From positions 129,783 through 193,782 of the forward strand of contig WRCA01000001.1 of assembly GCA_009784275.1 (NCBI GenBank): a stretch of DNA of 64,000 nucleotides. Reading direction: 5' to 3'. This stretch comes from Alphaproteobacteria bacterium. GTDB taxonomy: Bacteria; Pseudomonadota; Alphaproteobacteria; Rs-D84. Each line of letters opens with the position of its first letter. Position 1 is the first letter of the stretch. Made by a program: the position numbers and the translations under genes. Shown here piece by piece: positions 12,797-62,588 of this stretch. The notes beneath the pieces were generated by a model that worked only from the letters and a program-made list of their open reading frames with translations, made no database searches and was not told the origin of the DNA.

Positions 12797-13003
12797 ATGG
12801 TCAAAGTTTTGGTTCGCGACAATAATGTGGAACAGGCTCTGCGCGTGTCAAAGCGCAAGTCCCAGAAAGAAGGATTGTATCGCGAAATGAAAGAACGTCA
12901 GCGTTATGAAAAGCCGACGACAAAGCGCAAGCGCTTGAAAGAAGAAGCCGTACGTAATGAAAAAAAACGCCAATCCAAACAACGAATGGTGTTCGGATTC
13001 TAA
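12797..13003 (+). CDS. rpsU: 30S ribosomal protein S21
   Basis: [21 protein letters not shown]...RQRYEKPT. The AAAGGGGG ribosome binding site is 7 nt upstream. The upstream part of the ORF overlaps the tRNA and is discarded. Confidence 0.85.
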
Positions 13004-13029
13004 AAAAACCGCCTAAAGGCGGTTTTTTT
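13003..13029. terminator. bidirectional rho-independent terminator AAAAAACCGCCTAAAGGCGGTTTTTTT
   Basis: GC stem, 4 nt loop, flanking A and T tracts. Sits between convergent rpsU and the M23 peptidase gene. Confidence 0.65.
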
Positions 13030-15868: not shown

Positions 15869-15875
15869 GTTCGCC

Positions 15876-15890
15876 GGGCATATGGCGAAT
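15876..15890 (+). repeat. fragment matching the 5' acceptor/D-stem start of tRNA-Leu(UAG) (GGGCATATGGCG)
   Basis: Compared by eye with 16002-16016. Confidence 0.6.
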
Positions 15891-15960
15891 CCGAGTATAT
15901 GAAATCGAGCAAAGCGAAGATTGAATAACTACGAAGATACGCGCAGACGCGAAGCGGCAA

Positions 15961-15990
15961 GCGAAATTGGCAGACGCGCGGCGCGGATTG
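15961..15990 (+). repeat. fragment matching the D-arm region of tRNA-Leu(UAG) (GCGAAATTGGCAGACGCGC)
   Basis: 18 of 19 identity to 16010-16028, then divergence. Confidence 0.6.
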
Positions 15991-16001
15991 CATCTTTTTA
16001 C

Positions 16002-16086
<85 letters not shown>

Positions 16087-16201
16087 CGAATTTAGTGTAT
16101 GTGAACCTTGTAACCTCACAATGCGCGTCAACCGCTCGCGGCTTACACCGCCGCTCTCGGGACGCTTATACGCTCGGTTTCAAGTCCCTCTATGCCCACC
16201 A
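16087..16201 (+). repeat. tRNA-Leu tail module: about 90 nt conserved spacer ending in an imperfect 26 nt copy of the tRNA 3' end (GGTTTCAAGTCCCTCTATGCCCACCA)
   Basis: The 3' 26 nt have one mismatch against 16061-16086. The spacer is homologous to 47145-47232. Confidence 0.75.
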
Positions 16202-16253: not shown

Positions 16254-16281
16254 TTGACAAATTAATATATTACTCTATAAT
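16254..16281 (+). promoter_or_regulatory. near-consensus sigma70 promoter TTGACA - 16 nt - TATAAT, only 6 nt before the ATG at 16288 (possible leaderless transcript)
   Basis: -35 at 16254-16259, -10 at 16276-16281. A second TTGACA lies at 16242-16247. Confidence 0.5.
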
Positions 16282-17651: not shown

Positions 17652-18203
17652 ATGGAATCATTCGACGATATATCATTGATGCAGGAAATTCAGAACGGAA
17701 ATCGCGGCGCGTTTTCTATTCTGGTAAATCGTCATTCGCAATATTTCTTCGCGATTGCTTATCGTTTTGCGAACAATCGCGATACGGCCGAAGATATTTT
17801 GCAAAACGCTTTTTTGAAATTATGGGAACGACCGTATAAGTTCGACCCAGACGGCGCGGCCGGATTCAAGACTTGGTTTGCAAAGGTTGTTATAAATTTA
17901 TGCCTTGATGACCGGCGGGCACGAAAGCCTATTGTTGTTCTGGACGATTCAGAAATTCCAGATGATCGTGATTCGGCGGCAGACATAATAGACAGGCAGA
18001 GAAAATATATCGCGTTGAACAATGCTATCAAGAAACTGCCCGCCGCCCAACAGACCGCGATTAATCTTGGCTGCATAGAAGACCTTAAATACGAAGATGT
18101 TGGAAAGATTATGAAAAAATCGACCAGCGCGGTGAAAGTATTAATCATGCGCGCAAAAGAACAATTAAAAATCTCAATGAAGGAGTACGGATATGCAGCT
18201 TGA
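17652..18203 (+). CDS. ECF (sigma-70 family group 4) RNA polymerase sigma factor
   Basis: Region 2 (AEDILQNAFLKLW) and region 4 HTH (LKYEDVGKIMKKSTSAVKVLIMRAK). Confidence 0.8.
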   Translation: MESFDDISLMQEIQNGNRGAFSILVNRHSQYFFAIAYRFANNRDTAEDILQNAFLKLWERPYKFDPDGAAGFKTWFAKVVINLCLDDRRARKPIVVLDDSEIPDDRDSAADIIDRQRKYIALNNAIKKLPAAQQTAINLGCIEDLKYEDVGKIMKKSTSAVKVLIMRAKEQLKISMKEYGYAA

Positions 18204-19721: not shown

Positions 19722-20285
19722 ATGGGCGACTGGTTAAGCACACAATACATAACTTCTCAAGTCTTTGTCAGTATCGCATACTTATTGCTGGCTTCTACTT
19801 ATTTTATAACTCAAAGACGCAGGCTGCTTTTGACAGTCATAACCAGCAACACTTCTATGGGCATAGGATTTGCCTTGCTGGGCGGATGGGTTGCGGTTGG
19901 CATGTGCATTATCGCGATTTGCCGGGATATAGTCAGCGACATTATAAATTCGCGCCGCAGTCCTGCTGACAAGATGAAAATCACAAAGTCCGACTGGTGG
20001 TGGCTGGCGTTATGGATTTCTTTATTCACAACCGTGATGGCATTCACGCAAACCGGATTCATGACTTTGTTCGCGTATTTCGCAACTATGACATTTACGA
20101 TTTCAATCTGGCAGAAAAATCAATTCATTTACAGATTCCTTGGGATTTTCGTTGGAATATTCTGGATAACTTATAATGTTGTTGTAAAAAGCTTTATGGG
20201 CATAACCCTGGAATCAGCATTGCTGATATTTGTGATAGCCGGACTTATCCAATATTGTATAAAAGAAAGAAAATCGAAAAGGTAA
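19722..20285 (+). CDS. inner membrane protein, YgjV-like (about 5 TM)
   Basis: 187 aa, multiple hydrophobic helices. Family assignment is tentative. Confidence 0.35.
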   Translation: MGDWLSTQYITSQVFVSIAYLLLASTYFITQRRRLLLTVITSNTSMGIGFALLGGWVAVGMCIIAICRDIVSDIINSRRSPADKMKITKSDWWWLALWISLFTTVMAFTQTGFMTLFAYFATMTFTISIWQKNQFIYRFLGIFVGIFWITYNVVVKSFMGITLESALLIFVIAGLIQYCIKERKSKR

Positions 20286-20315
20286 TAAAAATCCGCCCGA
20301 AGGCGGATTTTTTTT
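20286..20315. terminator. bidirectional terminator AAAAATCCGCCCGAAGGCGGATTTTTTTTT
   Basis: Hairpin between the convergent genes. Confidence 0.65.
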
Positions 20316-21180
20316 ATTTCAGCGCTTGCTGTATCTGCGCCGCAGGGACTGCGCCCGGGAACGCCTGATCTTGTATGATCAAGAACGGAGTACCTTGGAT
20401 TCCAAACTGTTGCGCCAATTCGCCAACCTGTGCCAATTCATTGTTGACGGTTTCGCTTTTCATATCGGCTTCCAGTTTATCGGCATCCAAGCCAACTTTC
20501 TTTGCCGCCGTCAGGATATTCTTCAAGATCGCTTTTTCCAGCGCTTCTTGGGACTGGCCTTTCAGATCATCCGGCCAATATGGCTTTTCAATCAACAGCT
20601 TATCCAATTCCGCAGCTTTGGTATTGTCTTGGATTTTCGCAGCAATCACTGCACGCGCGGCACCATCTGACAAGACGCCATGGATCGAGAAGTTTTTGAT
20701 GACAACGCGAACGTCTTTGTTGTTTCCCAAGACGGTTAACAACTCTTTATGAACGCGCGCGCAATACGGGCAAGAATAATCAGTGAACAAGAATATTGTT
20801 TTCTTTGCATTCACATCGCCCAGGATCGGAGCATTCGCGACCATTTCTGCCATATGCTTTTTAACATATTTTTTAACTTCCTTGCTAGATTTGCCTTGTT
20901 CCGCATTCTGTGCACCTTTCACCATTTCCATAACGATGCCAGGATTTACATCCGTCAGATAATACGGAGTCCACAAACGCGCAACGCCGATTATCAACAA
21001 AACAATCGATAGCAATTTTATCGATTTTTTCGCGATCATCACGCCAATCGTTGCCGGTTTTTTCATATCATGTTTGATCAGCATTCCGCCGAACAAGTAA
21101 AGAGCGACTGCAATAATCAGCGCCAGGATTGCCCAAGTCATTTTTTCTCCTTTATGTTTGAACGGTATTGAGAGTAGCAA
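20314..21180 (-). CDS. membrane-anchored DsbA-family thiol:disulfide oxidoreductase
   Basis: Two N-terminal TM helices. Thioredoxin-fold domain with DYSCPYCARVH (CPYC active site). Confidence 0.65.
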   Translation of the reverse strand: MLLSIPFKHKGEKMTWAILALIIAVALYLFGGMLIKHDMKKPATIGVMIAKKSIKLLSIVLLIIGVARLWTPYYLTDVNPGIVMEMVKGAQNAEQGKSSKEVKKYVKKHMAEMVANAPILGDVNAKKTIFLFTDYSCPYCARVHKELLTVLGNNKDVRVVIKNFSIHGVLSDGAARAVIAAKIQDNTKAAELDKLLIEKPYWPDDLKGQSQEALEKAILKNILTAAKKVGLDADKLEADMKSETVNNELAQVGELAQQFGIQGTPFLIIQDQAFPGAVPAAQIQQALK

Positions 21181-29393: not shown

Positions 29394-29424
29394 TAAAAAA
29401 ATCCGCCGATTGGCGGATTTTTTA
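29394..29424. terminator. bidirectional terminator AAAAAAATCCGCCGATTGGCGGATTTTTTA
   Basis: Between convergent pgk and the 717 aa gene. Overlaps the latter's stop codon. Confidence 0.65.
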
Positions 29425-40992: not shown

Positions 40993-41277
40993 ATGGCAAC
41001 TGTTTCAAGAATAGATTTTTCAAAAAGATTAAGCGCGACAACCGGATTAAGCATGGCAGAAGCCGGCAAGCTGGTAGATCTTGTGTTTTCAGAAATCGCG
41101 GAATCATTAATTCGCGGGGAAGAAGTGAAAATCGCAAATCTGGGGACTTTCAAAATCTTGGAAAAAAACGCACGCATGGGACGCAATCCAAAGACCGGCG
41201 AGACCGCAGTAATTTCTGCCCGTCGTGTTGCATCATTTAAACCCAGCGCAGAATTAAGAAAAAAAATGGCTAATTAA
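40993..41277 (+). CDS. ihfA: integration host factor alpha subunit
   Basis: MATVSRIDFSKRL...GLS..EA..LVD.VF.EI...GE.V...GTF....ARMGRNPKTGE. Follows fabH as in alphaproteobacteria. Confidence 0.75.
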   Translation: MATVSRIDFSKRLSATTGLSMAEAGKLVDLVFSEIAESLIRGEEVKIANLGTFKILEKNARMGRNPKTGETAVISARRVASFKPSAELRKKMAN

Positions 41278-41302
41278 AATCCCGCTTTCGCGGGATTTTT
41301 TA
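41277..41302. terminator. bidirectional terminator AAAATCCCGCTTTCGCGGGATTTTTT
   Basis: Between convergent ihfA and pepO. Confidence 0.65.
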
Positions 41303-43282: not shown

Positions 43283-44370
43283 TTTAATAACCTTACTATC
43301 AAATTGTCCAAAAGCAAAAAATTTTTCGCGACTAATCTATTATCTTTAATCGTCAATTCCGCAGAATTCCAATTAGTGATTTCTTTGATTTCCGGCGTCA
43401 GTTTAACGCCCTGCGTTGTGCGCAACCCAGTAAGCAGGACTTCCAAAGCGCGTTCGCGGTTTTGTAGGGGCGCTTCACGAAGCACCCCTATGGAATCGTA
43501 TTTAGTCTCATACCACTGATTATTTATAAAAACTCTGCCTGCGGCGCCGTCACCCAGACCCAGATAAGGCTGACCATCCCACACATTCGCATTATGCTGG
43601 CACGGGGTTCCATAGTTTGACACTTCGTATCGTTGCAAATTTAATGTTTCGCCCACTGCCTCGTACATCTGCGCCATCGTTTCATTGTCGGGCATTTTTA
43701 GATTTTGTTTTGCAAGCGCCGTACCAGATTCGATAGATAACTCATACATAGAACAATGTTCCAATCCCAATTCATTTATTTGCTGGCAGAGTTTTTTTAC
43801 ATCCGCCACAGTTTGATCCGGCAGTCCATAAATAAAATCTGCGCTGACGCGAATACCCGCGTTTTGCGCGTCCGCAATAAATTTTCGCGCATCTGTCGCA
43901 TTATGAATTCGTCCCAAGAATTTTAGTTCTTCATCATTTAATGACTGCACACCAATAGAAATTCTATTGACGCCTGCGGCGATAAATTCTTGCAAACGCT
44001 GTGTATCGATTGTTCCAGGATTTGCTTCGATTGTAATTTCTGTATCTGGCGCGACATCGAATGCACTGCGGATTGCATTCATGATTTCCGCAAAGATTTT
44101 TGTCGGCATCAAGCTGGGCGTGCCGCCGCCGAAAAAGATCGTTGGCACGGCGGCGCGCCCGATCTTCCCGACCCAAAAATTAATTTCTGATAAGATTTGA
44201 TTTTTATAATCCAGCCAATCGGGCGCACCGCAAACCTTGGAATAAAACGCGCAATAATTACATTTCTTTACGCAGAATGGAACATGGATATAGATATTAT
44301 GCGGTGATACAGTCATACGATTATTGCAGAGCTTTTGGAACATATCCAAAAGTTTCATCATTGATACCAT
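43279..44370 (-). CDS. hemW: radical SAM heme chaperone HemW (HemN-like, oxygen-independent coproporphyrinogen oxidase family); true start probably the ATG at 44316
   Basis: IYIHVPFCVKKCNYCAF CxxxCxxC cluster. 4 nt overlap with the pepO start. The longer ORF overlaps the upstream gene by 50 nt. Confidence 0.75.
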   Translation of the reverse strand: MVSMMKLLDMFQKLCNNRMTVSPHNIYIHVPFCVKKCNYCAFYSKVCGAPDWLDYKNQILSEINFWVGKIGRAAVPTIFFGGGTPSLMPTKIFAEIMNAIRSAFDVAPDTEITIEANPGTIDTQRLQEFIAAGVNRISIGVQSLNDEELKFLGRIHNATDARKFIADAQNAGIRVSADFIYGLPDQTVADVKKLCQQINELGLEHCSMYELSIESGTALAKQNLKMPDNETMAQMYEAVGETLNLQRYEVSNYGTPCQHNANVWDGQPYLGLGDGAAGRVFINNQWYETKYDSIGVLREAPLQNRERALEVLLTGLRTTQGVKLTPEIKEITNWNSAELTIKDNRLVAKNFLLLDNLIVRLLK

Positions 44371-46789
44371 TACAGTATGTTTGACTACCGGTAATTCCAG
44401 ATGTACCAGTAGTCTTCAAACCAAATGGACATACTTTATTATTGAAATCTGCGAAACTTACATCGTCGAGAGGAAGGCTTACTACACTGCGCTGACAGCT
44501 GGTACTATTGCAAAGATCCGGATCATTGCTTGCAACTGCATTTGGATCTGGCTGCAGTATTGCTGGAGTACTTGGATAAGTATTATACCGCTCTGGACTG
44601 CAACCCAACGAAGTACCATTAGCACTACGCCGCCCCCCATTTTCCCAACAGCTGCATATCCCCCAAGATGTCGTGTCTATTTTCTTCCCGTAATCCATCG
44701 GGCACATATTTTCTTCAAATACGCCATTCGCAGAAACTATGTCATACAATACAGCCAGCATTGTGATAAAGCCGCCGGGCGTAGAGAAATCCGCCACGCA
44801 GAATTGAGAATACATATCTGGCGATAAAAATCTTTTTTGAACAAATCTGCCGCCATAGTTCTGACATTCGGAAGACAACCTGTTTGTTATCTGATTATAA
44901 ATTTCCGTCGCGACACCCCGGCTATGCATCGATTTTGGATTAAATGTAGTTCCTTCTTCCAACCCATACGTGCCATTCATTTTGTCGAACCCGCCAAATA
45001 CTTCAAGCGCAAAATCAGCATTGTCATCGGTCTTGAAGTTGCAGGCAGTAACATCAATTAGCTGCCTTGCGCATGGCGATATAACAGACCCGCTTTCATC
45101 CTTGAATGTAAACCAATCCAATGCTCTGCCAGTCGAAAAGATTCCGCTGATCGGATTATAAAAGTTGTTATATCCAACGCCACCGAAGTTATCAAAGCAC
45201 TGCTTAACCACCGCGCGGCAGGAATCCATCAGGTCTTGATTCTTTCTATTTTCAATATACTGCGCGATTATTCCCTGCCCTTCGCCGCGGCTGAACATAT
45301 AATCGCATGCGGTCACATATTTCTGACAAGTTGCATCCTGCAGATCGATCATGCCGGGGGTCAAATCTACCGCGCTGTTAATCAATCCAGCCATTGCCGC
45401 GGTTATCGCATGTGACCCATTCATATAACAAGCCGACACGAAGTCCATGCATCCGGTTTTGATTTCATCGACCTTTTCCCTTTGCGAGTAATAGATTTCC
45501 AGCATCGCTTTATCCAAATAATCCGCCCAGACTTGATCTGCTATCTCGGTACATTTATCCAGCGAAGGTTGAGCAAACTGTCTGACCTTTTTTTCAAATG
45601 TAGTCACAAACGTACGATTGTTCGGATTCCTTGCCAGTTTTTGTTCCCCCAGCGATATATTGCTTGTAAATGACAGCATTTCTTGCAATCTGAAAAACTC
45701 TACTACACCCTCCAACGGTCTGCCTGTTGTTACATCTATGAATTTTCCATTATCAAGACACTTGCGGTATCCCAAACCGCAAACTTCTTCAGACTGCACC
45801 GCTTTCTCAACATTGCGCAAGCATTCTGTCGCGTCCGAAGAATTTCGTTCTTGGCGATCCTGAACGCGCGCCAGGTTCAGCATAGCGCCGCCTTCGCGCA
45901 CAGCAGCAGCCATCTTCTTTTTATTTTCATCTATTTGTCTTTGCACTGTGTTGCAATCTTGCTCCACCGCCATCAAATATGCCGTAACCGCGCGCTGCAA
46001 GGCCGCATCGTTGCAATCACCGCGTACAGCTTCGCGACATTTTCCATAAATCGCGGTATAAAGATTTTTTCCGTTGTATGCCGCAATCGCTTGACCGCTG
46101 TCCATAAAGCCAAATCCCGCGGACTCATCCATTTTTATATTGATGCTGTTCAGGCCTTCGTACGCGCCGCCAACCGTGGCATTTTCACCCTTTATTGAAT
46201 TCATAATCGCTTGCAGCAAAGCCTTGGATGCGGACTTGTCGCCGGTCAGTGCCAGCTCTCCCTCGCTGGCCTTGCGCATGGCTTCTGCTTGGGCGGCGCT
46301 CATCCCGACTACATCCAAAGACTCGGTAAAAGTCGTCAGCTGCGCACCAGCATCCCTCATTACGCCTTGCGCCGCAGTAATGTCATAGATTTTATCCGAG
46401 CAAGAACAACGTTGATAAGTTGGATCTTTTATCGCGCAAAATTGGTCCATACAGGCAAAATAAGCGGACTTGCATTGATCGTACTCCATGCCGGTGCGCG
46501 TGCCGACTGATTGAGTTTCCGTTGCAGCGCGCGCCCTTACCAAAGGTTGTTGCGTTGCGGAACGTGTTGTTTGGACTTGCGTTGCACTGCGTGCAGGTGT
46601 TGATGTTGCAGAGCGTGCTGCAACCTGGGGCGCTGCGCCACGCGTAGAAATATTGGTGGTTGCGCTGCGGCTGACAACCTCTGCCGACGTTGCAGGGCGC
46701 GCAGACCTGGTGACATCACGCGGTGCGGCATCTGCATGATGCGCACAAAACAGCGTCAATCCGATAAAAATCAGAGAAATTTTTTTCAT
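44321..46789 (-). CDS. large secreted cysteine-rich protein, paralog B (822 aa)
   Basis: MKKISLIFIGLTLFCAHHADA signal peptide, RSAT-type repeats, SAYFACMDQFC...RCSCS block and further colinear Cys and motif conservation with the 717 aa protein. Confidence 0.6.
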   Translation of the reverse strand: MKKISLIFIGLTLFCAHHADAAPRDVTRSARPATSAEVVSRSATTNISTRGAAPQVAARSATSTPARSATQVQTTRSATQQPLVRARAATETQSVGTRTGMEYDQCKSAYFACMDQFCAIKDPTYQRCSCSDKIYDITAAQGVMRDAGAQLTTFTESLDVVGMSAAQAEAMRKASEGELALTGDKSASKALLQAIMNSIKGENATVGGAYEGLNSINIKMDESAGFGFMDSGQAIAAYNGKNLYTAIYGKCREAVRGDCNDAALQRAVTAYLMAVEQDCNTVQRQIDENKKKMAAAVREGGAMLNLARVQDRQERNSSDATECLRNVEKAVQSEEVCGLGYRKCLDNGKFIDVTTGRPLEGVVEFFRLQEMLSFTSNISLGEQKLARNPNNRTFVTTFEKKVRQFAQPSLDKCTEIADQVWADYLDKAMLEIYYSQREKVDEIKTGCMDFVSACYMNGSHAITAAMAGLINSAVDLTPGMIDLQDATCQKYVTACDYMFSRGEGQGIIAQYIENRKNQDLMDSCRAVVKQCFDNFGGVGYNNFYNPISGIFSTGRALDWFTFKDESGSVISPCARQLIDVTACNFKTDDNADFALEVFGGFDKMNGTYGLEEGTTFNPKSMHSRGVATEIYNQITNRLSSECQNYGGRFVQKRFLSPDMYSQFCVADFSTPGGFITMLAVLYDIVSANGVFEENMCPMDYGKKIDTTSWGICSCWENGGRRSANGTSLGCSPERYNTYPSTPAILQPDPNAVASNDPDLCNSTSCQRSVVSLPLDDVSFADFNNKVCPFGLKTTGTSGITGSQTYCNGINDETFGYVPKALQ

Positions 46790-46884
46790 TCCTGATGAAA
46801 TTATACAGAATTTTGCAAAGCCCGGTCAATCAGTATTTAATTCTTGCAAAGGGGATTTTTTTGGGATAATATTGCTGTCGCTTG

Positions 46885-46968
46885 CGGATATGGCGGAATT
46901 GGTAGACGCGCTAGTTTCAGGTACTAGTGGGGCGACCCTTGGAAGTTCGAGTCTTCTTATCCGCACCA
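46885..46968 (+). tRNA. tRNA-Leu (anticodon CAG)
   Basis: GCGGATATGGCGGAATTGGTAGACGCGCTAGTTTCAGGTACTAG... long variable arm ...TTCGAGTCTTCTTATCCGCACCA. Confidence 0.85.
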
Positions 46969-47057: not shown

Positions 47058-47144
47058 GGTCTTGTGGCGGAATGGTAGACGCTGAGGACTTAAAATCCTT
47101 TGGTTATTGCAACCGTGTGGGTTCGAGTCCCACCAAGACCACCA
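47058..47144 (+). tRNA. tRNA-Leu (anticodon UAA)
   Basis: GGTCTTGTGGCGGAATGGTAGACGCTGAGGACTTAAAATCCTT... long variable arm ...GGGTTCGAGTCCCACCAAGACCACCA. Confidence 0.85.
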
Positions 47145-47258
47145 TGAACTTTGTTCCTATAAACCTTGCAACCTTACGACGCGCACATCTGCTCGTTGCT
47201 AATAACGCTCCTCGCAGTGTGCTTTTACGCTCGGTTTCGAGTCCCACCAAGACCACCA
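47145..47258 (+). repeat. tRNA-Leu tail module (homolog of 16087-16201) ending in an imperfect copy of the tRNA-Leu(UAA) 3' end (GGTTTCGAGTCCCACCAAGACCACCA)
   Basis: 3' 26 nt have one mismatch against 47119-47144. Shared spacer motifs are AACCTTG(T/C)AACCT.AC.A.GCGC and TTACGCTCGGTTTC. Confidence 0.75.
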
Positions 47259-47354
47259 AAAAATTCCCCGCGATCTTCGTAATTTTATTTCATGCTAAGT
47301 GAAATAAAAAAACCAGCACAAAGTATGCTTTACGCTGGTTAATTTTGAACTTAC

Positions 47355-48020
47355 TTATCTATTTTTAATATTCCGATTGATGACCGCCATTGCGCGGGCG
47401 TGGTCTTTCGGATTATCCGGAAAGTTAACTAATGCCTTCTTTGCGCCAGCGCCATCACGGCTGGGTTCTACTATTACTTCTGGAACGCTCGATGTTTCTT
47501 TGCCTATATCTTCCAAAACAAAACACCCATCAAATGAAACTCGTTTTGCTTTGAAGCACAATGCTTCATGTTCGCAACGGTCGCAATCAAGCAATAATGG
47601 TCCATGCATCGCTAACTCGGCACATGCCTCTTTGAAAATGTTTTTGGCAGTTTTTTCATCCATACCTATCGCTTTCCCCACCGTCGAGATCGTCAATGCA
47701 ATCGCTTTCTCTGCTTCTGTAGGAGTAATCTCAATTTTATCAAAAAGCTGGTGGGTAACTCGGAAAATATATTTCGACACATTTTGCATTTGGACTAACG
47801 GCGTGGCTTTTTTATATTCTTCGACCTTGTTTCTGGGAACATTCAGAATATCACCAGGCTGGTGCATCGCAGCAACCAAATAATTCGTTTCCGGATATAT
47901 TTTTGCACATTCTTCTGCAAGCGCGGCTTTTTCAAGCAACTGTTCAAACCAATGCTTCATCGAACGCGCATTGCCAATGATCAATCTATTAAATTCTTTT
48001 TCAAATTTTTCAAAAGACAT
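47355..48020 (-). CDS. hypothetical protein with C-terminal Cys cluster (DCDRCEHEALC...C)
   Basis: 221 aa ORF, no family recognised. Possible metal-binding site. Confidence 0.4.
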   Translation of the reverse strand: MSFEKFEKEFNRLIIGNARSMKHWFEQLLEKAALAEECAKIYPETNYLVAAMHQPGDILNVPRNKVEEYKKATPLVQMQNVSKYIFRVTHQLFDKIEITPTEAEKAIALTISTVGKAIGMDEKTAKNIFKEACAELAMHGPLLLDCDRCEHEALCFKAKRVSFDGCFVLEDIGKETSSVPEVIVEPSRDGAGAKKALVNFPDNPKDHARAMAVINRNIKNR

Positions 48021-57887: not shown

Positions 57888-57917
57888 TAAAATCCCGCTT
57901 TTGCGGGATTTTTTTAT
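57888..57917. terminator. bidirectional terminator AAAATCCCGCTTTTGCGGGATTTTTTT
   Basis: Between convergent genes. Confidence 0.65.
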
Positions 57918-59912: not shown

Positions 59913-62564
59913 ATGAAATGGGTATATACCTTTGGAAACGGTGCGGCAGAAGGTACCGCAAAGGATAAAAACTTACTGGGTGGCAAGGGCGCAAATTTGG
60001 CAGAGATGAACTTGATTGGTCTACCGGTGCCTGCGGGTTTTACTGTTACCACGGATGCTTGTGTTCACTATTATTCAAATAATAAATCTTATCCGGCCGG
60101 ATTAATTGACCAGGTAAAAGCCGGGGTTGCATATGTAGAATCCATTATGGGACATAAATTCGGCGATATGGAAAATCCATTATTGTTCTCTGTTCGTTCC
60201 GGCGCGCGCGTTTCTATGCCAGGCATGATGAACACCGTTTTAAATTTGGGCCTTAATGACGAAACTGTAAAAGCCCTCGCGAAATTCACCAACAACGAAC
60301 GCATGGCATATGATTCTTATCGCCGATTTCTGATGATGTTCAGCGATGTTGTTCTGGGTGCGGATATGGATTTATTTGAACACACTCTGGAACGCATGAA
60401 GGAAGACAAAGGCTATAAGTTCGATACAGAACTAACCGTTGCCGACCTGCAAGAACTGATCGTGAAGTTCAAAGAAATTGGCGTGAAGATTGGAAAGATT
60501 GTTCCACAGGATCCTTGGGTGCAATTAGAGGCTGGTATCGGCGCAGTATTTGATTCTTGGATGTCAAAGAAGGCCATCATTTATCGCAAGCTGAACAATA
60601 TTCCAGGTGACTGGGGCACTGCGGTTAATGTCCAGGCGATGGTGTTTGGAAACTCTGGTGATAATTCTGCGACTGGCGTATGTTTCAGCCGTGACCCTTC
60701 CACCGGAGAAAACAAATTCTATGGCGAATATCTTATTAACGCCCAGGGCGAAGACGTCGTTGCCGGAATTCGCACTCCGCAGCCAATGGCAAAGGATGAT
60801 TCTGGACGTATGTCGCTGGAAGAAGCGATGCCCGTGGTTTATGCCGAACTGGTTGCTGCGCGCGACAAATTGGAAAAGCACTATAAAGACATGCAAGATA
60901 TGGAATTTACCATAGAGCATGGAAAGCTGTGGATGCTGCAGACCCGTAATGGAAAACGCACCGCAACCGCAGCTGTTCGCATCGCGGTAGAAATGGTTGA
61001 AGAAAATCTGCTTAACAAAGAAGAAGCGATTTTGCGTGTTGGTGCAGACCAATTAAATCACTTGCTGCATCCGATGCTTGATCCAAAAGCGACCAAGAAA
61101 GTTATCGCGACCGGCTTGCCTGCAAGTCCAGGCGCAGCCGTTGGACGTGCGGTATTCAATGCCGACGACGCAGTTGAATGGGCGTCGCGCGGCGAAAAGG
61201 TTATGTTGATTCGCATAGAGACTTCACCAGAAGATATCGCAGGAATGGACGCCGCCCAGGGAATCATAACTGCGCGTGGTGGGATGACATCACACGCAGC
61301 AGTGGTGGCGCGCGGAATGGGAACACCTTGCGTTTCAGGTTCCGCCGACATAAAAATCGATTATGTTTCAAAAACGATGAAGACTACATCCGGCGCAGTG
61401 ATTAATGAAGGCGACTGGATTTCCATTGATGGCGGCAAAGGCGAAATCATTGAAGGTCAGGTTCCGACCGTATCTGTGGAATTAACCGGAAACTTTGGCA
61501 AGCTGATGGAATGGGTTGACAGTATCAAGACTTTGGAGATTCGCGCGAATGCCGAAACTCCGCGAGATGCAAAACAAGCACGTGAATTCGGATGTGAAGG
61601 AATTGGCCTGGCACGTACAGAGCATATGTTCTTTGACCCGGCACGCATCATGGACATGCGCGAAATGATTTTGGCCGATACTGTTGAAGGTCGCCGCAGC
61701 GCGCTTAACAAACTGTTGCCTTATCAACGCGCGGACTTTGTAGAGCTATTTAAAATTATGGATGGATTGCCAATTACTGTTCGTTTGATTGACCCGCCGC
61801 TGCATGAATTCTTGCCGCATACCACCGAAGACATCAAAGCGTTGGCGATTCATGCCGGGAAGACGGTTGAGTTCGTGAACGAGCGCGCGTCAGCACTGCA
61901 CGAACAAAACCCGATGTTGGGTCACCGCGGCTGCCGCTTGTGCATCACTTATCCGGAAATTGCAGAGATGCAGACCCGCGCAATTTTGGAAGCCGCATTG
62001 GAATGCAAAAAAGCCGGAATCAAAGTTTTGCCTGAAATTGAAATTCCCCTTATCGGTTCCAGAAAAGAACAAGACATTGTCAAAGCCGTAATCGATGCGA
62101 CCGCGAAACAAATTTTTGCTGAAAAAGGCGCAACTGTTGACTACAAGGTTGGTTCAATGATAGAGCTGCCGCGTGCGGCATTGCTGGCTGATGAAATTGC
62201 AGAAAGCGCAGAATTCTTTGGCTTTGGCACAAATGACCTGACGCAAACTACTTTGGGCATGTCGCGCGATGATACTGGAAAAATCTTGGATGAATATCGC
62301 GCGCGTGGTGTTTATGTTGCCGACCCGTTCGCCAGCATCGATGTACCAGGCGTTGGCGCAATGGTCGATATGGCTGTGCAAAAAGCCCGCAAGACCAAGG
62401 GACATGACATACACCTGGGCGTTTGTGGCGAACATGGCGGAGACCCGGAATCTATCCAATTCTTTCATAAGGTCGGAATGGATTTCGTATCCTGCAGCCC
62501 GTTCCGCGTGCCAATCGCACGCCTCGCCGCCGCCCAGGCTGCGGTTAAAAACCCACGCAAGTAA
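59913..62564 (+). CDS. ppdK: pyruvate, phosphate dikinase
   Basis: Phosphohistidine region GGMTSHAAVVARGMG. PEP-utilising C-terminal domain. 883 aa. Confidence 0.9.
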   Translation: MKWVYTFGNGAAEGTAKDKNLLGGKGANLAEMNLIGLPVPAGFTVTTDACVHYYSNNKSYPAGLIDQVKAGVAYVESIMGHKFGDMENPLLFSVRSGARVSMPGMMNTVLNLGLNDETVKALAKFTNNERMAYDSYRRFLMMFSDVVLGADMDLFEHTLERMKEDKGYKFDTELTVADLQELIVKFKEIGVKIGKIVPQDPWVQLEAGIGAVFDSWMSKKAIIYRKLNNIPGDWGTAVNVQAMVFGNSGDNSATGVCFSRDPSTGENKFYGEYLINAQGEDVVAGIRTPQPMAKDDSGRMSLEEAMPVVYAELVAARDKLEKHYKDMQDMEFTIEHGKLWMLQTRNGKRTATAAVRIAVEMVEENLLNKEEAILRVGADQLNHLLHPMLDPKATKKVIATGLPASPGAAVGRAVFNADDAVEWASRGEKVMLIRIETSPEDIAGMDAAQGIITARGGMTSHAAVVARGMGTPCVSGSADIKIDYVSKTMKTTSGAVINEGDWISIDGGKGEIIEGQVPTVSVELTGNFGKLMEWVDSIKTLEIRANAETPRDAKQAREFGCEGIGLARTEHMFFDPARIMDMREMILADTVEGRRSALNKLLPYQRADFVELFKIMDGLPITVRLIDPPLHEFLPHTTEDIKALAIHAGKTVEFVNERASALHEQNPMLGHRGCRLCITYPEIAEMQTRAILEAALECKKAGIKVLPEIEIPLIGSRKEQDIVKAVIDATAKQIFAEKGATVDYKVGSMIELPRAALLADEIAESAEFFGFGTNDLTQTTLGMSRDDTGKILDEYRARGVYVADPFASIDVPGVGAMVDMAVQKARKTKGHDIHLGVCGEHGGDPESIQFFHKVGMDFVSCSPFRVPIARLAAAQAAVKNPRK

Positions 62565-62588
62565 AATCGCCCATACGGGCGATTTTTT
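62561..62588. terminator. terminator AAAATCGCCCATACGGGCGATTTTTT
   Basis: Hairpin plus T-tract right after the ppdK stop. Confidence 0.65.

What the first reader, a model, noticed from the sequence alone, without database searches (positions are those of the whole stretch)
47058..47258. Second tRNA-Leu (UAA) with a homologous tail module and its own 3' end copy
The structure matches the tRNA-Leu(UAG) locus. The tRNA 3' 26 nt (47119-47144) are repeated at 47233-47258 with the same single substitution (GGTTTCGAGTCCC...). The spacer shares AACCTTGCAACCTTACGACGCGC and TTTTACGCTCGGTTTC with the other module. Two different tRNA-Leu isoacceptors each carrying their own 3' end copy inside a homologous module strongly suggests a family of tRNA-Leu-specific integrative or retro-elements, or a conserved tRNA-linked RNA element. 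tRNA-Leu(CAG) at 46885 lacks it.
Basis: seen in the sequence. Interest (0 to 1): 0.7.

Follow-up and report, generated by a model that had tools for sequence, protein, structure and literature searches.

The report
Gene-less insertion duplicating tRNA-Leu 3' end
Two leucine tRNA genes of an uncultured gut alphaproteobacterium each carry a small, gene-less insertion of about 91 bases that is bracketed by an exact copy of the tRNA's last 23 bases. It looks like the footprint of a miniature mobile element that targets the tRNA T-loop without breaking the gene, but the enzyme that made it is unknown.

Summary
tRNA-Leu(UAA) lies at 47058-47144. Its last 26 nt recur at 47233-47258 (25/26), and the last 23 nt (tRNA positions 54-76) recur exactly at 47236-47258. 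tRNA-Leu(UAG) at 16002-16086 has the same layout, and the two spacers are homologous (68% identity).

In both modules the repeat ends exactly at CCA. The sequence just after the tRNA is homologous between modules, and the sequence after the copy is not. So this is an insertion of about 91 nt bounded by a 23-nt direct repeat.

- The modules are identical in three independent assemblies of this species.
- They are absent from the same tRNA genes in every relative I could fetch.
- Exact-motif scans of GTDB species genomes, JGI metagenomes and IMG/VR, a BLAST of phage and plasmid records, and an Rfam scan found no relatives.
- No integrase, transposase or reverse transcriptase is encoded in the 64 kb.

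A mirror-image module duplicating the tRNA 5' end lies upstream of tRNA-Leu(UAG). A relative has a homologous one at tRNA-Leu(CAG), built around a small MITE-like hairpin element.

Best reading: a lineage-specific, non-autonomous insertion of the att type (T-loop to 3' end) that keeps the tRNA intact. The mechanism is unresolved. A conserved tRNA-linked RNA is not supported.

The parts
47058..47144 (+). tRNA-Leu(UAA), intact, with encoded CCA. It is the third gene of a Leu(CAG)-Ala(CGC)-Leu(UAA) cluster.
   Evidence: ARAGORN; Rfam tRNA, 61.3 bits.
47122..47144 (+). First copy of the 23-nt direct repeat (tRNA positions 54-76, from the T-loop to CCA).
   Evidence: Sequence read; repeat family D1.
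47145..47235 (+). The 91-nt insert ('down module'). It consists of an AU-rich linker, the left box, a variable interior and the right box ending in CGGT.
   Evidence: Homologous to 16087-16178: 68% identity, z = 16.5. It shows no similarity to tRNA bodies and has no Rfam hit.
47162..47184 (+). Conserved left box AACCTTGCAACCTTACGACGCGC. CTTGCAACC (47165-47173) can pair with GGTTTCGAG (47233-47241).
   Evidence: 19/23 identical between the two modules. Pairing.
47226..47235 (+). Conserved right box TACGCTCGGT, which abuts the second repeat copy.
   Evidence: The aligned right-box segment (TTATACGCTCGGT vs TTTTACGCTCGGT) is 12/13 identical, and TACGCTCGGT itself is 10/10.
47236..47258 (+). Second copy of the 23-nt repeat. 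It is exact and ends at CCA, and is followed by non-homologous flank.
47311..47340 (.). Two-way terminator hairpin shared with the convergent 221-aa ORF. It is the first terminator after the tRNA cluster, so the module is probably transcribed as a 3' trailer (inferred).
   Evidence: minus-strand call. On the plus strand I saw a T-run flanking the hairpin when reading the sequence.
16002..16086 (+). tRNA-Leu(UAG), the partner locus.
16087..16178 (+). Homologous 92-nt insert of the partner locus.
16179..16201 (+). Exact 23-nt copy of the tRNA-Leu(UAG) 3' end.
15875..16001 (+). Upstream module of tRNA-Leu(UAG). It holds a copy of the tRNA 5' end (15875-15889), a hairpin element of about 72 nt, a D-arm copy (15961-15979) and a 22-nt linker.
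   Evidence: Homologous to L005 3138-3311, which lies in front of tRNA-Leu(CAG).

Best explanation
The module is a lineage-specific DNA insertion, not part of the tRNA. A gene-less element of about 91 nt sits in an attachment-type site that runs from the T-loop (T54) to the CCA end of a tRNA-Leu gene.

The element is bracketed by two exact copies of tRNA positions 54-76. The gene therefore stays intact, and a 3' end fragment is left about 91 nt downstream. This is the layout of attL - element - attR for a tRNA-targeting integrative element, shrunk to a non-autonomous miniature.

The two copies, at tRNA-Leu(UAA) and tRNA-Leu(UAG), are diverged members of one family, each matched to its own tRNA. 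Their conserved boxes near both ends, and an imperfect hairpin that pairs the left box with the T-loop copy, are most likely recognition features for an enzyme supplied in trans. That enzyme is not encoded in this window.

The module is probably co-transcribed with the tRNA as a 3' trailer and trimmed away.

Shown: the anatomy, the sharp boundaries, the homology of the two inserts, presence versus absence among relatives, and the lack of mobility genes nearby. Inferred: that a site-specific recombinase made it, that the boxes and hairpin are its recognition features, and that the RNA has no function of its own.
For: 1. Sharp insertion anatomy in both modules. The identity starts at T54 and stops exactly at CCA. 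The sequence right after the tRNA is homologous between modules (YGAAYTTWGT...), while the sequence after the copy is not.
2. The conserved insert sequence runs right up to the T-loop (TACGCTCGGT|TTCRAG).
3. Presence versus absence. The orthologous tRNA-Leu(UAA) in L005/L006 and L008 has no module. Nor does the orthologous tRNA-Leu(UAG) in L016/L017, L018, L022-L026 or L028/L029.
4. Identical copies occur in three independent assemblies.
5. Conservation along the insert is uneven: boxes 83-92%, interior 59%, linker 53%. The predicted hairpin has 2 compensatory pairs. The shared G53->T turns an A.G mismatch into an A-U pair with the left box (read from the sequence).
6. A mirror-image module that duplicates the tRNA 5' end occurs at tRNA-Leu(UAG) here and at tRNA-Leu(CAG) in a relative. 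This shows that end-duplicating insertions at tRNA-Leu genes recur in this clade.
7. A repeat reaching from the T-loop to the 3' end of a tRNA gene is the classical attachment-core layout of tRNA-targeting integrases. This rests on established knowledge; partial tRNAs as att sites are described in bioRxiv 10.1101/2020.12.28.424599.
Against: - No integrase, transposase or reverse transcriptase is encoded anywhere in the 64 kb.
- About 114 bp is very small for a double-stranded circular intermediate.
- The two inserts are collinear, so they are not two islands that decayed independently. The miniature form itself must have spread, and I know of no precedent for that.
- Both repeat copies are target-specific, even at T-loop position 57. 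A conservative recombinase explains this only if each element was already adapted to its tRNA.
- No relatives were found by exact-motif scans of GTDB species genomes, JGI metagenomes or IMG/VR, by BLAST of phages and plasmids, or by a translated-ORF search.
- Hairpin stability is not better than shuffled sequence (z = -1.2 and -1.6).
Confidence: 0.45

Rival explanations
1. Retro-type origin. A reverse transcriptase starts at the CCA end of mature tRNA-Leu, copies back to the T-loop and switches to the trailer or hairpin RNA. At that RNA's 5' end it switches again to the CCA end of a second tRNA molecule. The hybrid cDNA (tRNA - insert - tRNA 54-76) then replaces the gene by homologous recombination.
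For: The duplicated pieces end at, or within 1 nt of, the mature tRNA termini in all four modules. These are CCA in both down modules, and position 1 (with a match at -1) in both up modules. Both repeat copies are target-specific, including position 57, which this model gives automatically. Reverse transcriptases that initiate at tRNA 3' ends are known for the Mauriceville retroplasmid (PMC9925561, citing Chiang and Lambowitz 1997). End-to-end template switching by group II intron reverse transcriptases is documented (bioRxiv 10.1101/792986, listed).
Against: No reverse transcriptase is found in the window. I know of no bacterial precedent for chromosomal integration of such hybrid cDNAs. The model needs recombination on only 15-23 nt of homology. 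The exact boundaries can also be explained by selection for an intact tRNA.
Confidence: 0.13
2. Functional 3' trailer RNA. The hairpin plus a single-stranded tail identical to the tRNA 3' strand is kept by selection. It might act as a decoy or competitor for factors that bind the tRNA-Leu 3' end, or as a folding or processing aid for the precursor.
For: Both 23-nt copies are unchanged although the spacers differ by 32%. If that divergence arose neutrally in place, P is about 1e-4. Other support: the conserved boxes, 2 compensatory pairs, a U.G/U-A change that is tolerated only in RNA, and the likely co-transcription up to the terminator at 47311-47340.
Against: It is absent from the same tRNA genes in all relatives fetched (trigger-factor identity 83-72%, SIMPL identity 74-58%). 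There is no Rfam family. Folding energy is not better than shuffles. No downstream gene is in a position to be regulated: one locus has its own consensus promoter after the module, and the other faces a convergent gene.
Confidence: 0.15
3. Duplicative insertion by a transposase or Cas1-like integrase that makes staggered cuts at the T-loop (53|54) and at the gene end (76|77). The 23-nt repeat would then be a long target-site duplication of a MITE-like element.
For: Both repeat copies are fully target-derived. The up-module core really is a MITE-like element: a third copy in L008 lies outside any tRNA and is flanked by GAAT...GAAT. From my own knowledge, casposons duplicate about 14-15 bp at the 3' ends of tRNA genes.
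Against: There are no terminal inverted repeats at the insert ends (read from the sequence). A fixed stagger does not explain both a 23-nt repeat on the 3' side and a 13-16-nt repeat on the 5' side, each ending at a tRNA terminus. No transposase or Cas1 is found in the window. Only two copies exist, both at tRNA-Leu. Homology between the up modules and the reverse-complemented down modules is not significant.
Confidence: 0.12
4. Two large genomic islands integrated into the two tRNA-Leu genes, and each independently lost its interior, leaving small scars.
For: tRNA 3' end direct repeats are the usual island boundaries.
Against: The two inserts are collinear over their whole length, with a single 1-nt indel and nearly equal size (91 and 92 nt). 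Independent deletions would not leave the same end points. There are no integrase fragments.
Confidence: 0.05
5. The module is a decayed tandem copy of the tRNA gene, or a chance or assembly artefact.
For: The spacing (114-115 nt) is of the order of one tRNA plus a spacer.
Against: The spacer shows no similarity to any tRNA body on either strand (z between -1.8 and 1.5), while the last 23 nt are perfect. Motif chance expectation is 0.01. Three independent assemblies agree.
Confidence: 0.02

Closest known systems
tRNA-targeting integrative elements of tyrosine (P4/lambda-type) integrases, with the att core running from the T-loop to the 3' end of a tRNA gene
   Same: A direct repeat of the tRNA 3' segment brackets the inserted DNA. 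The identity begins in the T-loop and ends at the end of the gene. The tRNA stays intact. The insertion is present or absent among relatives. From my own knowledge, tRNA-Leu genes are frequent targets (for example leuX for P4).
   Different: There is no integrase and there are no genes at all. The insert is only about 91 nt. Two diverged but collinear miniatures sit in one genome. There is no evidence of excision.
CIMEs and other non-autonomous att-flanked elements mobilised in trans
   Same: An att-flanked element without its own recombinase.
   Different: Known examples are kilobases long and derive from identifiable parent elements (from my own knowledge). Here no parent element or helper has been found, and the element is two orders of magnitude smaller.
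MITEs, REP and REPIN-type small structured repeats
   Same: Small size, no genes, an imperfect hairpin, intergenic location, and neighbouring genomes rich in small palindromic elements next to tRNAs.
   Different: A 23-nt tRNA-specific repeat instead of a short duplication; no clear terminal inverted repeats; only two copies, both at tRNA-Leu.
Folded single-strand recombination sites (integron attC, CTX-phage attP)
   Same: A hairpin of about 78 nt whose stem imitates the duplex core (GGTTTCRAG against CTTGYAACC, with a bulge), conserved outer boxes and a variable interior.
   Different: The attC core consensus (RYYYAAC / GTTRRRY) is not met, and those systems do not produce a 23-nt repeat. 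The resemblance is conceptual only.
Retroplasmid and retroviral use of tRNA 3' ends (Mauriceville reverse transcriptase initiation at CCA; primer-binding sites)
   Same: A copy of the tRNA 3' terminal segment ending in CCA is joined to non-tRNA sequence. On the opposite strand the copy reads like a primer-binding site (TGGTGGTCTTGGTGGGA...).
   Different: No reverse transcriptase is found, the host is a bacterial chromosome, and the copy is same-sense and adjacent to the tRNA gene itself.

Membership tests
tRNA-targeting integrative element (tyrosine integrase island or prophage) | The inserted DNA is flanked by a direct repeat of the tRNA 3' segment (att core) | tested here: met
   Exact 23-nt repeats at 47122-47144 / 47236-47258 and 16064-16086 / 16179-16201.
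tRNA-targeting integrative element (tyrosine integrase island or prophage) | An integrase gene, or a recognisable pseudogene, lies inside the element next to the tRNA | tested here: not met
   The insert is 91 nt with no ORF. Pfam and PHROGs scans of flanking ORFs and of about 45 ORFs across the window found no Phage_integrase, recombinase, transposase or RVT domain.
tRNA-targeting integrative element (tyrosine integrase island or prophage) | An empty site exists in related genomes, with the tRNA followed directly by the distal flank | tested here: inconclusive
   Relatives have the tRNA without the module, but their downstream genes are rearranged. Only a 7-nt match (ATTCCCC) links the window flank after the copy to the flank after the L008 tRNA.
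tRNA-targeting integrative element (tyrosine integrase island or prophage) | Excision to a circular form and reintegration | not testable with these tools
   This needs raw reads or an experiment.
MITE / REP-like repeat | Terminal inverted repeats and a short target-site duplication | tested here: not met
   The insert ends (YGAAYTT... and ...ACGCTCGGT) are not inverted copies of each other. The only inverted pair is subterminal (9 nt, imperfect). The flanking repeat is 23 nt and tRNA-specific.
MITE / REP-like repeat | Many dispersed copies in the genome | tested here: not met
   There are two copies in 64 kb, both at tRNA-Leu. None occur in the relatives' loci. The rest of the genome was not available.
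Known structured RNA family (Rfam 15) | A match to a covariance model | tested here: not met
   Only the tRNAs pass the gathering thresholds. With E up to 10, nothing credible covers the module.
Integron attC-type folded site | R''/R' core sequences RYYYAAC ... GTTRRRY | tested here: not met
   TTGCAAC matches 5 of 7 positions and GTTTCGA matches 4 of 7 (read from the sequence).
Retroelement-derived insertion | An associated reverse transcriptase, or cDNA hallmarks | tested here: inconclusive
   No RVT domain in the window. The boundaries at mature tRNA ends are compatible with a cDNA origin but not diagnostic.

The most novel reading that the evidence does not exclude
A previously undescribed class of miniature bacterial elements spreads among tRNA-Leu genes using the tRNA itself. 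Either mature tRNA-Leu serves as a template or primer, giving a hybrid cDNA that recombines into the gene. Or the transcribed hairpin with its 23-nt tRNA-identical 3' tail acts as a homing guide for an enzyme supplied in trans. Either route would explain why every duplicated piece ends at a mature tRNA terminus and is specific to its own tRNA.
Probability: 0.12. Interest if true: 0.8.

Novelty: new variant of a known kind. Interest (0 to 1): 0.5.

Why it matters
Partial tRNA copies are routinely read as the edges of genomic islands. Here the 'island' is about 91 nt with no genes, it exists as two diverged copies, and a 5'-side counterpart occurs in the same clade.

If the miniature form is itself mobile, it would be an attachment-site-only parasite of a recombinase, or a tRNA-templated retro-insertion in bacteria. 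Neither is an established category.

There are practical consequences too. Such modules can mislead island finders, tRNA annotation and gene callers; a spurious 95-aa ORF was called across module 1. They also break assemblies inside tRNA genes.

Tried and rejected
**Searches that found nothing related**
- Exact two-box pattern in GTDB species genomes: 2 chance hits inside ORFs, with no tRNA nearby.
- The same pattern, and the permuted (attP-order) pattern, in IMG/VR: nothing.
- Right-box pattern in JGI metagenomes and IMG/VR: only chance hits in coding sequence.
- blastn of the spacer against phages and plasmids: nothing.
- Rfam at permissive thresholds: nothing.
- phmmer of the translated module against 1.84 billion representative proteins, to catch spurious ORFs over related modules: only itself.

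**Ideas tested and dropped**
- The 221-aa and 822-aa neighbours as decayed integrases. They have no Pfam or PHROGs match, and the 221-aa protein, the only one of the two searched, has no homologues.
- The spacer as a decayed tRNA copy: rejected.
- Homology between the up modules and the reverse complement of the down modules. Pairwise z scores were only 1.7-3.1, and nhmmer found nothing, so this is unproven.
- Homology of the insert to the palindromic elements after tRNA-Leu in L028 and L005: not significant.
- The 14-nt inverted repeat at 46851-46864 / 47256-47269 as a processing stalk. Its left arm lies inside the likely promoter spacer, so it is probably not transcribed.
- A TnpB/Cas12-like guide RNA reading. 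The intact tRNA in the same locus would be a self-target.

Full report

Yes. ARAGORN and Rfam place tRNA-Leu(UAA) at 47058-47144. Its last 26 nt recur at 47233-47258 with one G->T change, and the last 23 nt (TTCGAGTCCCACCAAGACCACCA, tRNA positions 54-76) recur exactly at 47236-47258.

tRNA-Leu(UAG) at 16002-16086 shows the same arrangement. Its copy lies at 16176-16201, and the spacing is 115 versus 114 nt.

The two shared motifs occur only at these two places in the 64 kb. For the right box, 0.01 matches were expected by chance.

The spacers align along their whole length with a single 1-nt indel, at 68% identity and z = 16.5.

The same sequences occur in three independent assemblies: ENA ERZ27257304, ENA ERZ27257295 and Logan SRR10512951. 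So this is not an assembly artefact. tRNA-Leu(CAG) at 46884 has no module.

**2. Anatomy**

In both modules the identity with the tRNA stops exactly at CCA.
- The bases right after the tRNA (TGAACTTTGT / CGAATTTAGT) are homologous between modules.
- The bases after the copy (AAAAAATTCC / TTTATGACAA) are not.
- On the other side, the conserved insert sequence TACGCTCGGT runs right up to T54.

The true repeat is 23 nt, and the insert is 91 nt (47145-47235) or 92 nt (16087-16178).

Conservation along the insert is uneven:

| Segment | Identity between the two modules |
|---|---|
| Linker after CCA | 53% |
| Left box AACCTTGYAACCTYACRAYGCGC | 83% |
| Interior | 59% |
| Right box | 92% |

The left box (CTTGYAACC) can pair with the T-loop copy (GGTTTCRAG). 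This closes an imperfect hairpin of about 78 nt and leaves the acceptor-strand copy single-stranded. The T at position 53 turns an A.G mismatch into a pair.

RNAalifold keeps 16 pairs, 2 of them with compensatory changes. However, the folding energies are no better than those of shuffled sequences (z = -1.2 and -1.6). With only two sequences, the hairpin is plausible rather than proven.

The spacer is not a decayed tRNA and matches no Rfam family.

**3. Context**

The window comes from an uncultured alphaproteobacterium. Its relatives are metagenome bins labelled Alphaproteobacteria or Rickettsiales.

Pfam and PHROGs scans of the neighbours, and of about 45 ORFs across the window, found housekeeping genes only. 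There is no integrase, transposase or reverse transcriptase.

The first terminator after the tRNA cluster is at 47311-47340, so module 2 is probably transcribed as a trailer. Module 1 is followed by a perfect sigma-70 promoter for the next gene.

**4. Relatives**

I fetched the orthologous loci through trigger factor and the SIMPL protein.
- tRNA-Leu(UAA) in L005/L006 (trigger factor 83% identical) and in L008 (75%) lacks the module. Its sequence in L008 differs from the window's at one T-loop base.
- tRNA-Leu(UAG) in L016/L017 (SIMPL 74% identical), L018 (58%), L022-L026 (63%) and L028/L029 lacks it too.

The module is therefore a lineage-specific insertion and not a conserved part of the tRNA-Leu transcription unit.

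Searches elsewhere found only chance hits or nothing:
- exact-motif scans of 185,579 GTDB species genomes, the JGI metagenomes and IMG/VR;
- BLAST against phages and plasmids;
- a translated-ORF search of 1.84 billion representative proteins.

These scans need exact boxes. ENA and Logan DNA could not be scanned, so absence elsewhere is not proven.

**5. A second, mirror-image module**

Upstream of tRNA-Leu(UAG), at 15875-16001, lie four parts in order:
- a copy of the tRNA's first 13-14 nt;
- a hairpin element of about 72 nt;
- a copy of the D-arm;
- a 22-nt linker.

A clearly homologous module (z = 19.7) sits in front of tRNA-Leu(CAG) in the relative L005/L006. There the 5' copy matches that tRNA instead, and the promoter lies upstream of the partial copy.

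A third copy of the hairpin core occurs in L008, in an intergenic spot away from any tRNA. It is flanked by GAAT on both sides, so the core is a MITE-like element that targets GAA(T), a sequence present in the tRNA-Leu D-loop. Its hairpin has 3 compensatory pairs among 3 copies.

The displaced 5' pieces in the window fit an A13 allele like that of L028, whereas the working tRNA has G13. This hints that the working 5' part is not a simple local duplicate.

End-duplicating insertions at tRNA-Leu genes therefore recur in this clade. In all four modules the duplicated piece runs from a loop to within 1 nt of a mature tRNA end.

Homology between the up modules and the reverse-complemented down modules is suggestive only (GAAWCCGAG... 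and ...GCAAG; z = 1.7-3.1). It is not significant.

**6. Mechanism**

The layout is the textbook attL - element - attR of an integrase that crosses over in the T-loop and carries the tRNA's 3' end, so that the gene is restored. Such identity blocks end at the gene end because only the tRNA part is under selection. This also accounts for the 5'-side modules.

The two inserts differ by 32% yet are collinear. They are therefore two old lineages of an element that was already miniature, each matched to its own tRNA. They are not two islands that decayed independently.

The unchanged 23-nt repeats admit three explanations: recent insertion from diverged sources, constraint on the element, or a host function. 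If the spacer divergence had arisen neutrally in place, P would be about 1e-4.

I favour a non-autonomous, att-type miniature mobilised in trans (0.45). The main difficulties are:
- no recombinase is found in the window;
- the element is very small for a double-stranded circle;
- both repeat copies are target-specific even at T-loop position 57.

These same facts are what the rival models explain well:
- a hybrid cDNA made on mature tRNA-Leu (0.13; precedent in PMC9925561);
- a long target duplication by staggered cutting (0.12);
- a functional trailer RNA (0.15), which fits the conservation pattern but not the absence from relatives.

**7. Verdict**

It has no integrase, it is not a conserved RNA, and I found no sequence relatives.

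It is best filed as a new, miniature variant of tRNA-targeting integrative elements, with the mechanism still open.

Noticed in passing
window 15875-16001: Upstream of tRNA-Leu(UAG) lies a mirror-image module: a copy of the tRNA 5' end (15875-15889), a hairpin element of about 72 nt (TCCGAGTATATGA...GATACGCGCAGACGCGAA...GCGGCAAGC), a D-arm copy (15961-15979) and a 22-nt linker. The displaced pieces fit an A13 allele, while the working tRNA has G13.
   Followed up: partly
L005 3138-3311 (also L006); L008 11818-11899 (also L009): Homologous copies of the up-module hairpin core occur in relatives. One sits in front of tRNA-Leu(CAG), with that tRNA's own 5' end duplicated and an extra internal segment of about 50 nt. 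One is intergenic, between the S21 and adenylate kinase genes, flanked by GAAT...GAAT. This behaves like a small MITE that targets GAA(T).
   Followed up: partly
L005 3397-3426 and 3509-3541; L018 4033-4062; L015 2104-2130: A GC-rich repeat of about 30 nt (CCCTTCGCCAAGGCTWYGGGYGGCARGCCA) starts immediately after the CCA of several tRNAs in relatives. Its GGGTGG can pair with the tRNA's terminal CCA plus CCC. It is absent from the window.
   Followed up: no
L005 5682-5808; L028 8502-8630 (minus strand): Other palindromic elements sit directly after tRNA-Leu genes in relatives. One is an inverted repeat of about 127 nt whose arms include the tRNA's CCA (L005). The other is a near-perfect palindrome of about 130 nt, 12 nt after tRNA-Leu(UAG) (L028). 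tRNA-Leu 3' flanks appear to be hot spots for small structured insertions in this clade. There is no significant similarity to the module studied.
   Followed up: partly
window 46851-46864 and 47256-47269: A 14-nt inverted repeat (GGGGATTTTTTTGG / CCAAAAAATTCCCC, 13/14 complementary) brackets the whole tRNA cluster plus the module. The right arm overlaps the CCA of the copy, and the left arm lies inside the probable promoter spacer. It may be chance.
   Followed up: no
window 47355-48020 (-) and 44321-46789 (-): The two proteins flanking the tRNA cluster are orphans. The 221-aa protein has no homologue among 5.8 billion clustered proteins. The 822-aa protein is Cys-rich, has a signal-peptide-like N-terminus, and has no Pfam or PHROGs match; I did not search it for homologues. 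In relatives this position holds TrpRS and other genes, so the locus has been rearranged.
   Followed up: partly
window 16254-16281: A perfect sigma-70 consensus promoter (TTGACA, 16-nt spacer, TATAAT) lies directly after module 1. It faces a run of small ORFs with no family match and an ECF-type sigma factor (17652-18203).
   Followed up: no
window 13000-13026, 20284-20320, 29394-29423, 41275-41301, 57888-57914, 62562-62588: A family of short GC hairpins flanked by A-runs and T-runs (AAAAATCCGCC...GGCGGATTTTT) lies at gene ends. They look like two-way intrinsic terminators.
   Followed up: no
L013 end and L021 start (ERZ27257295): In one sample the assembly breaks inside tRNA-Leu(UAG). One contig ends at tRNA position 6 and another starts near position 56. 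This could reflect the partial tRNA copies confusing the assembly graph, or strain heterogeneity at this locus.
   Followed up: no
L031 7885-8799: In a relative (trigger factor 73% identical), a 304-aa XerC/D-like tyrosine recombinase (Phage_int_SAM_1 plus Phage_integrase) sits directly upstream of the L13 gene. In the window that position is occupied by the orphan ORF and the tRNA cluster. No tRNA is present in that locus.
   Followed up: no
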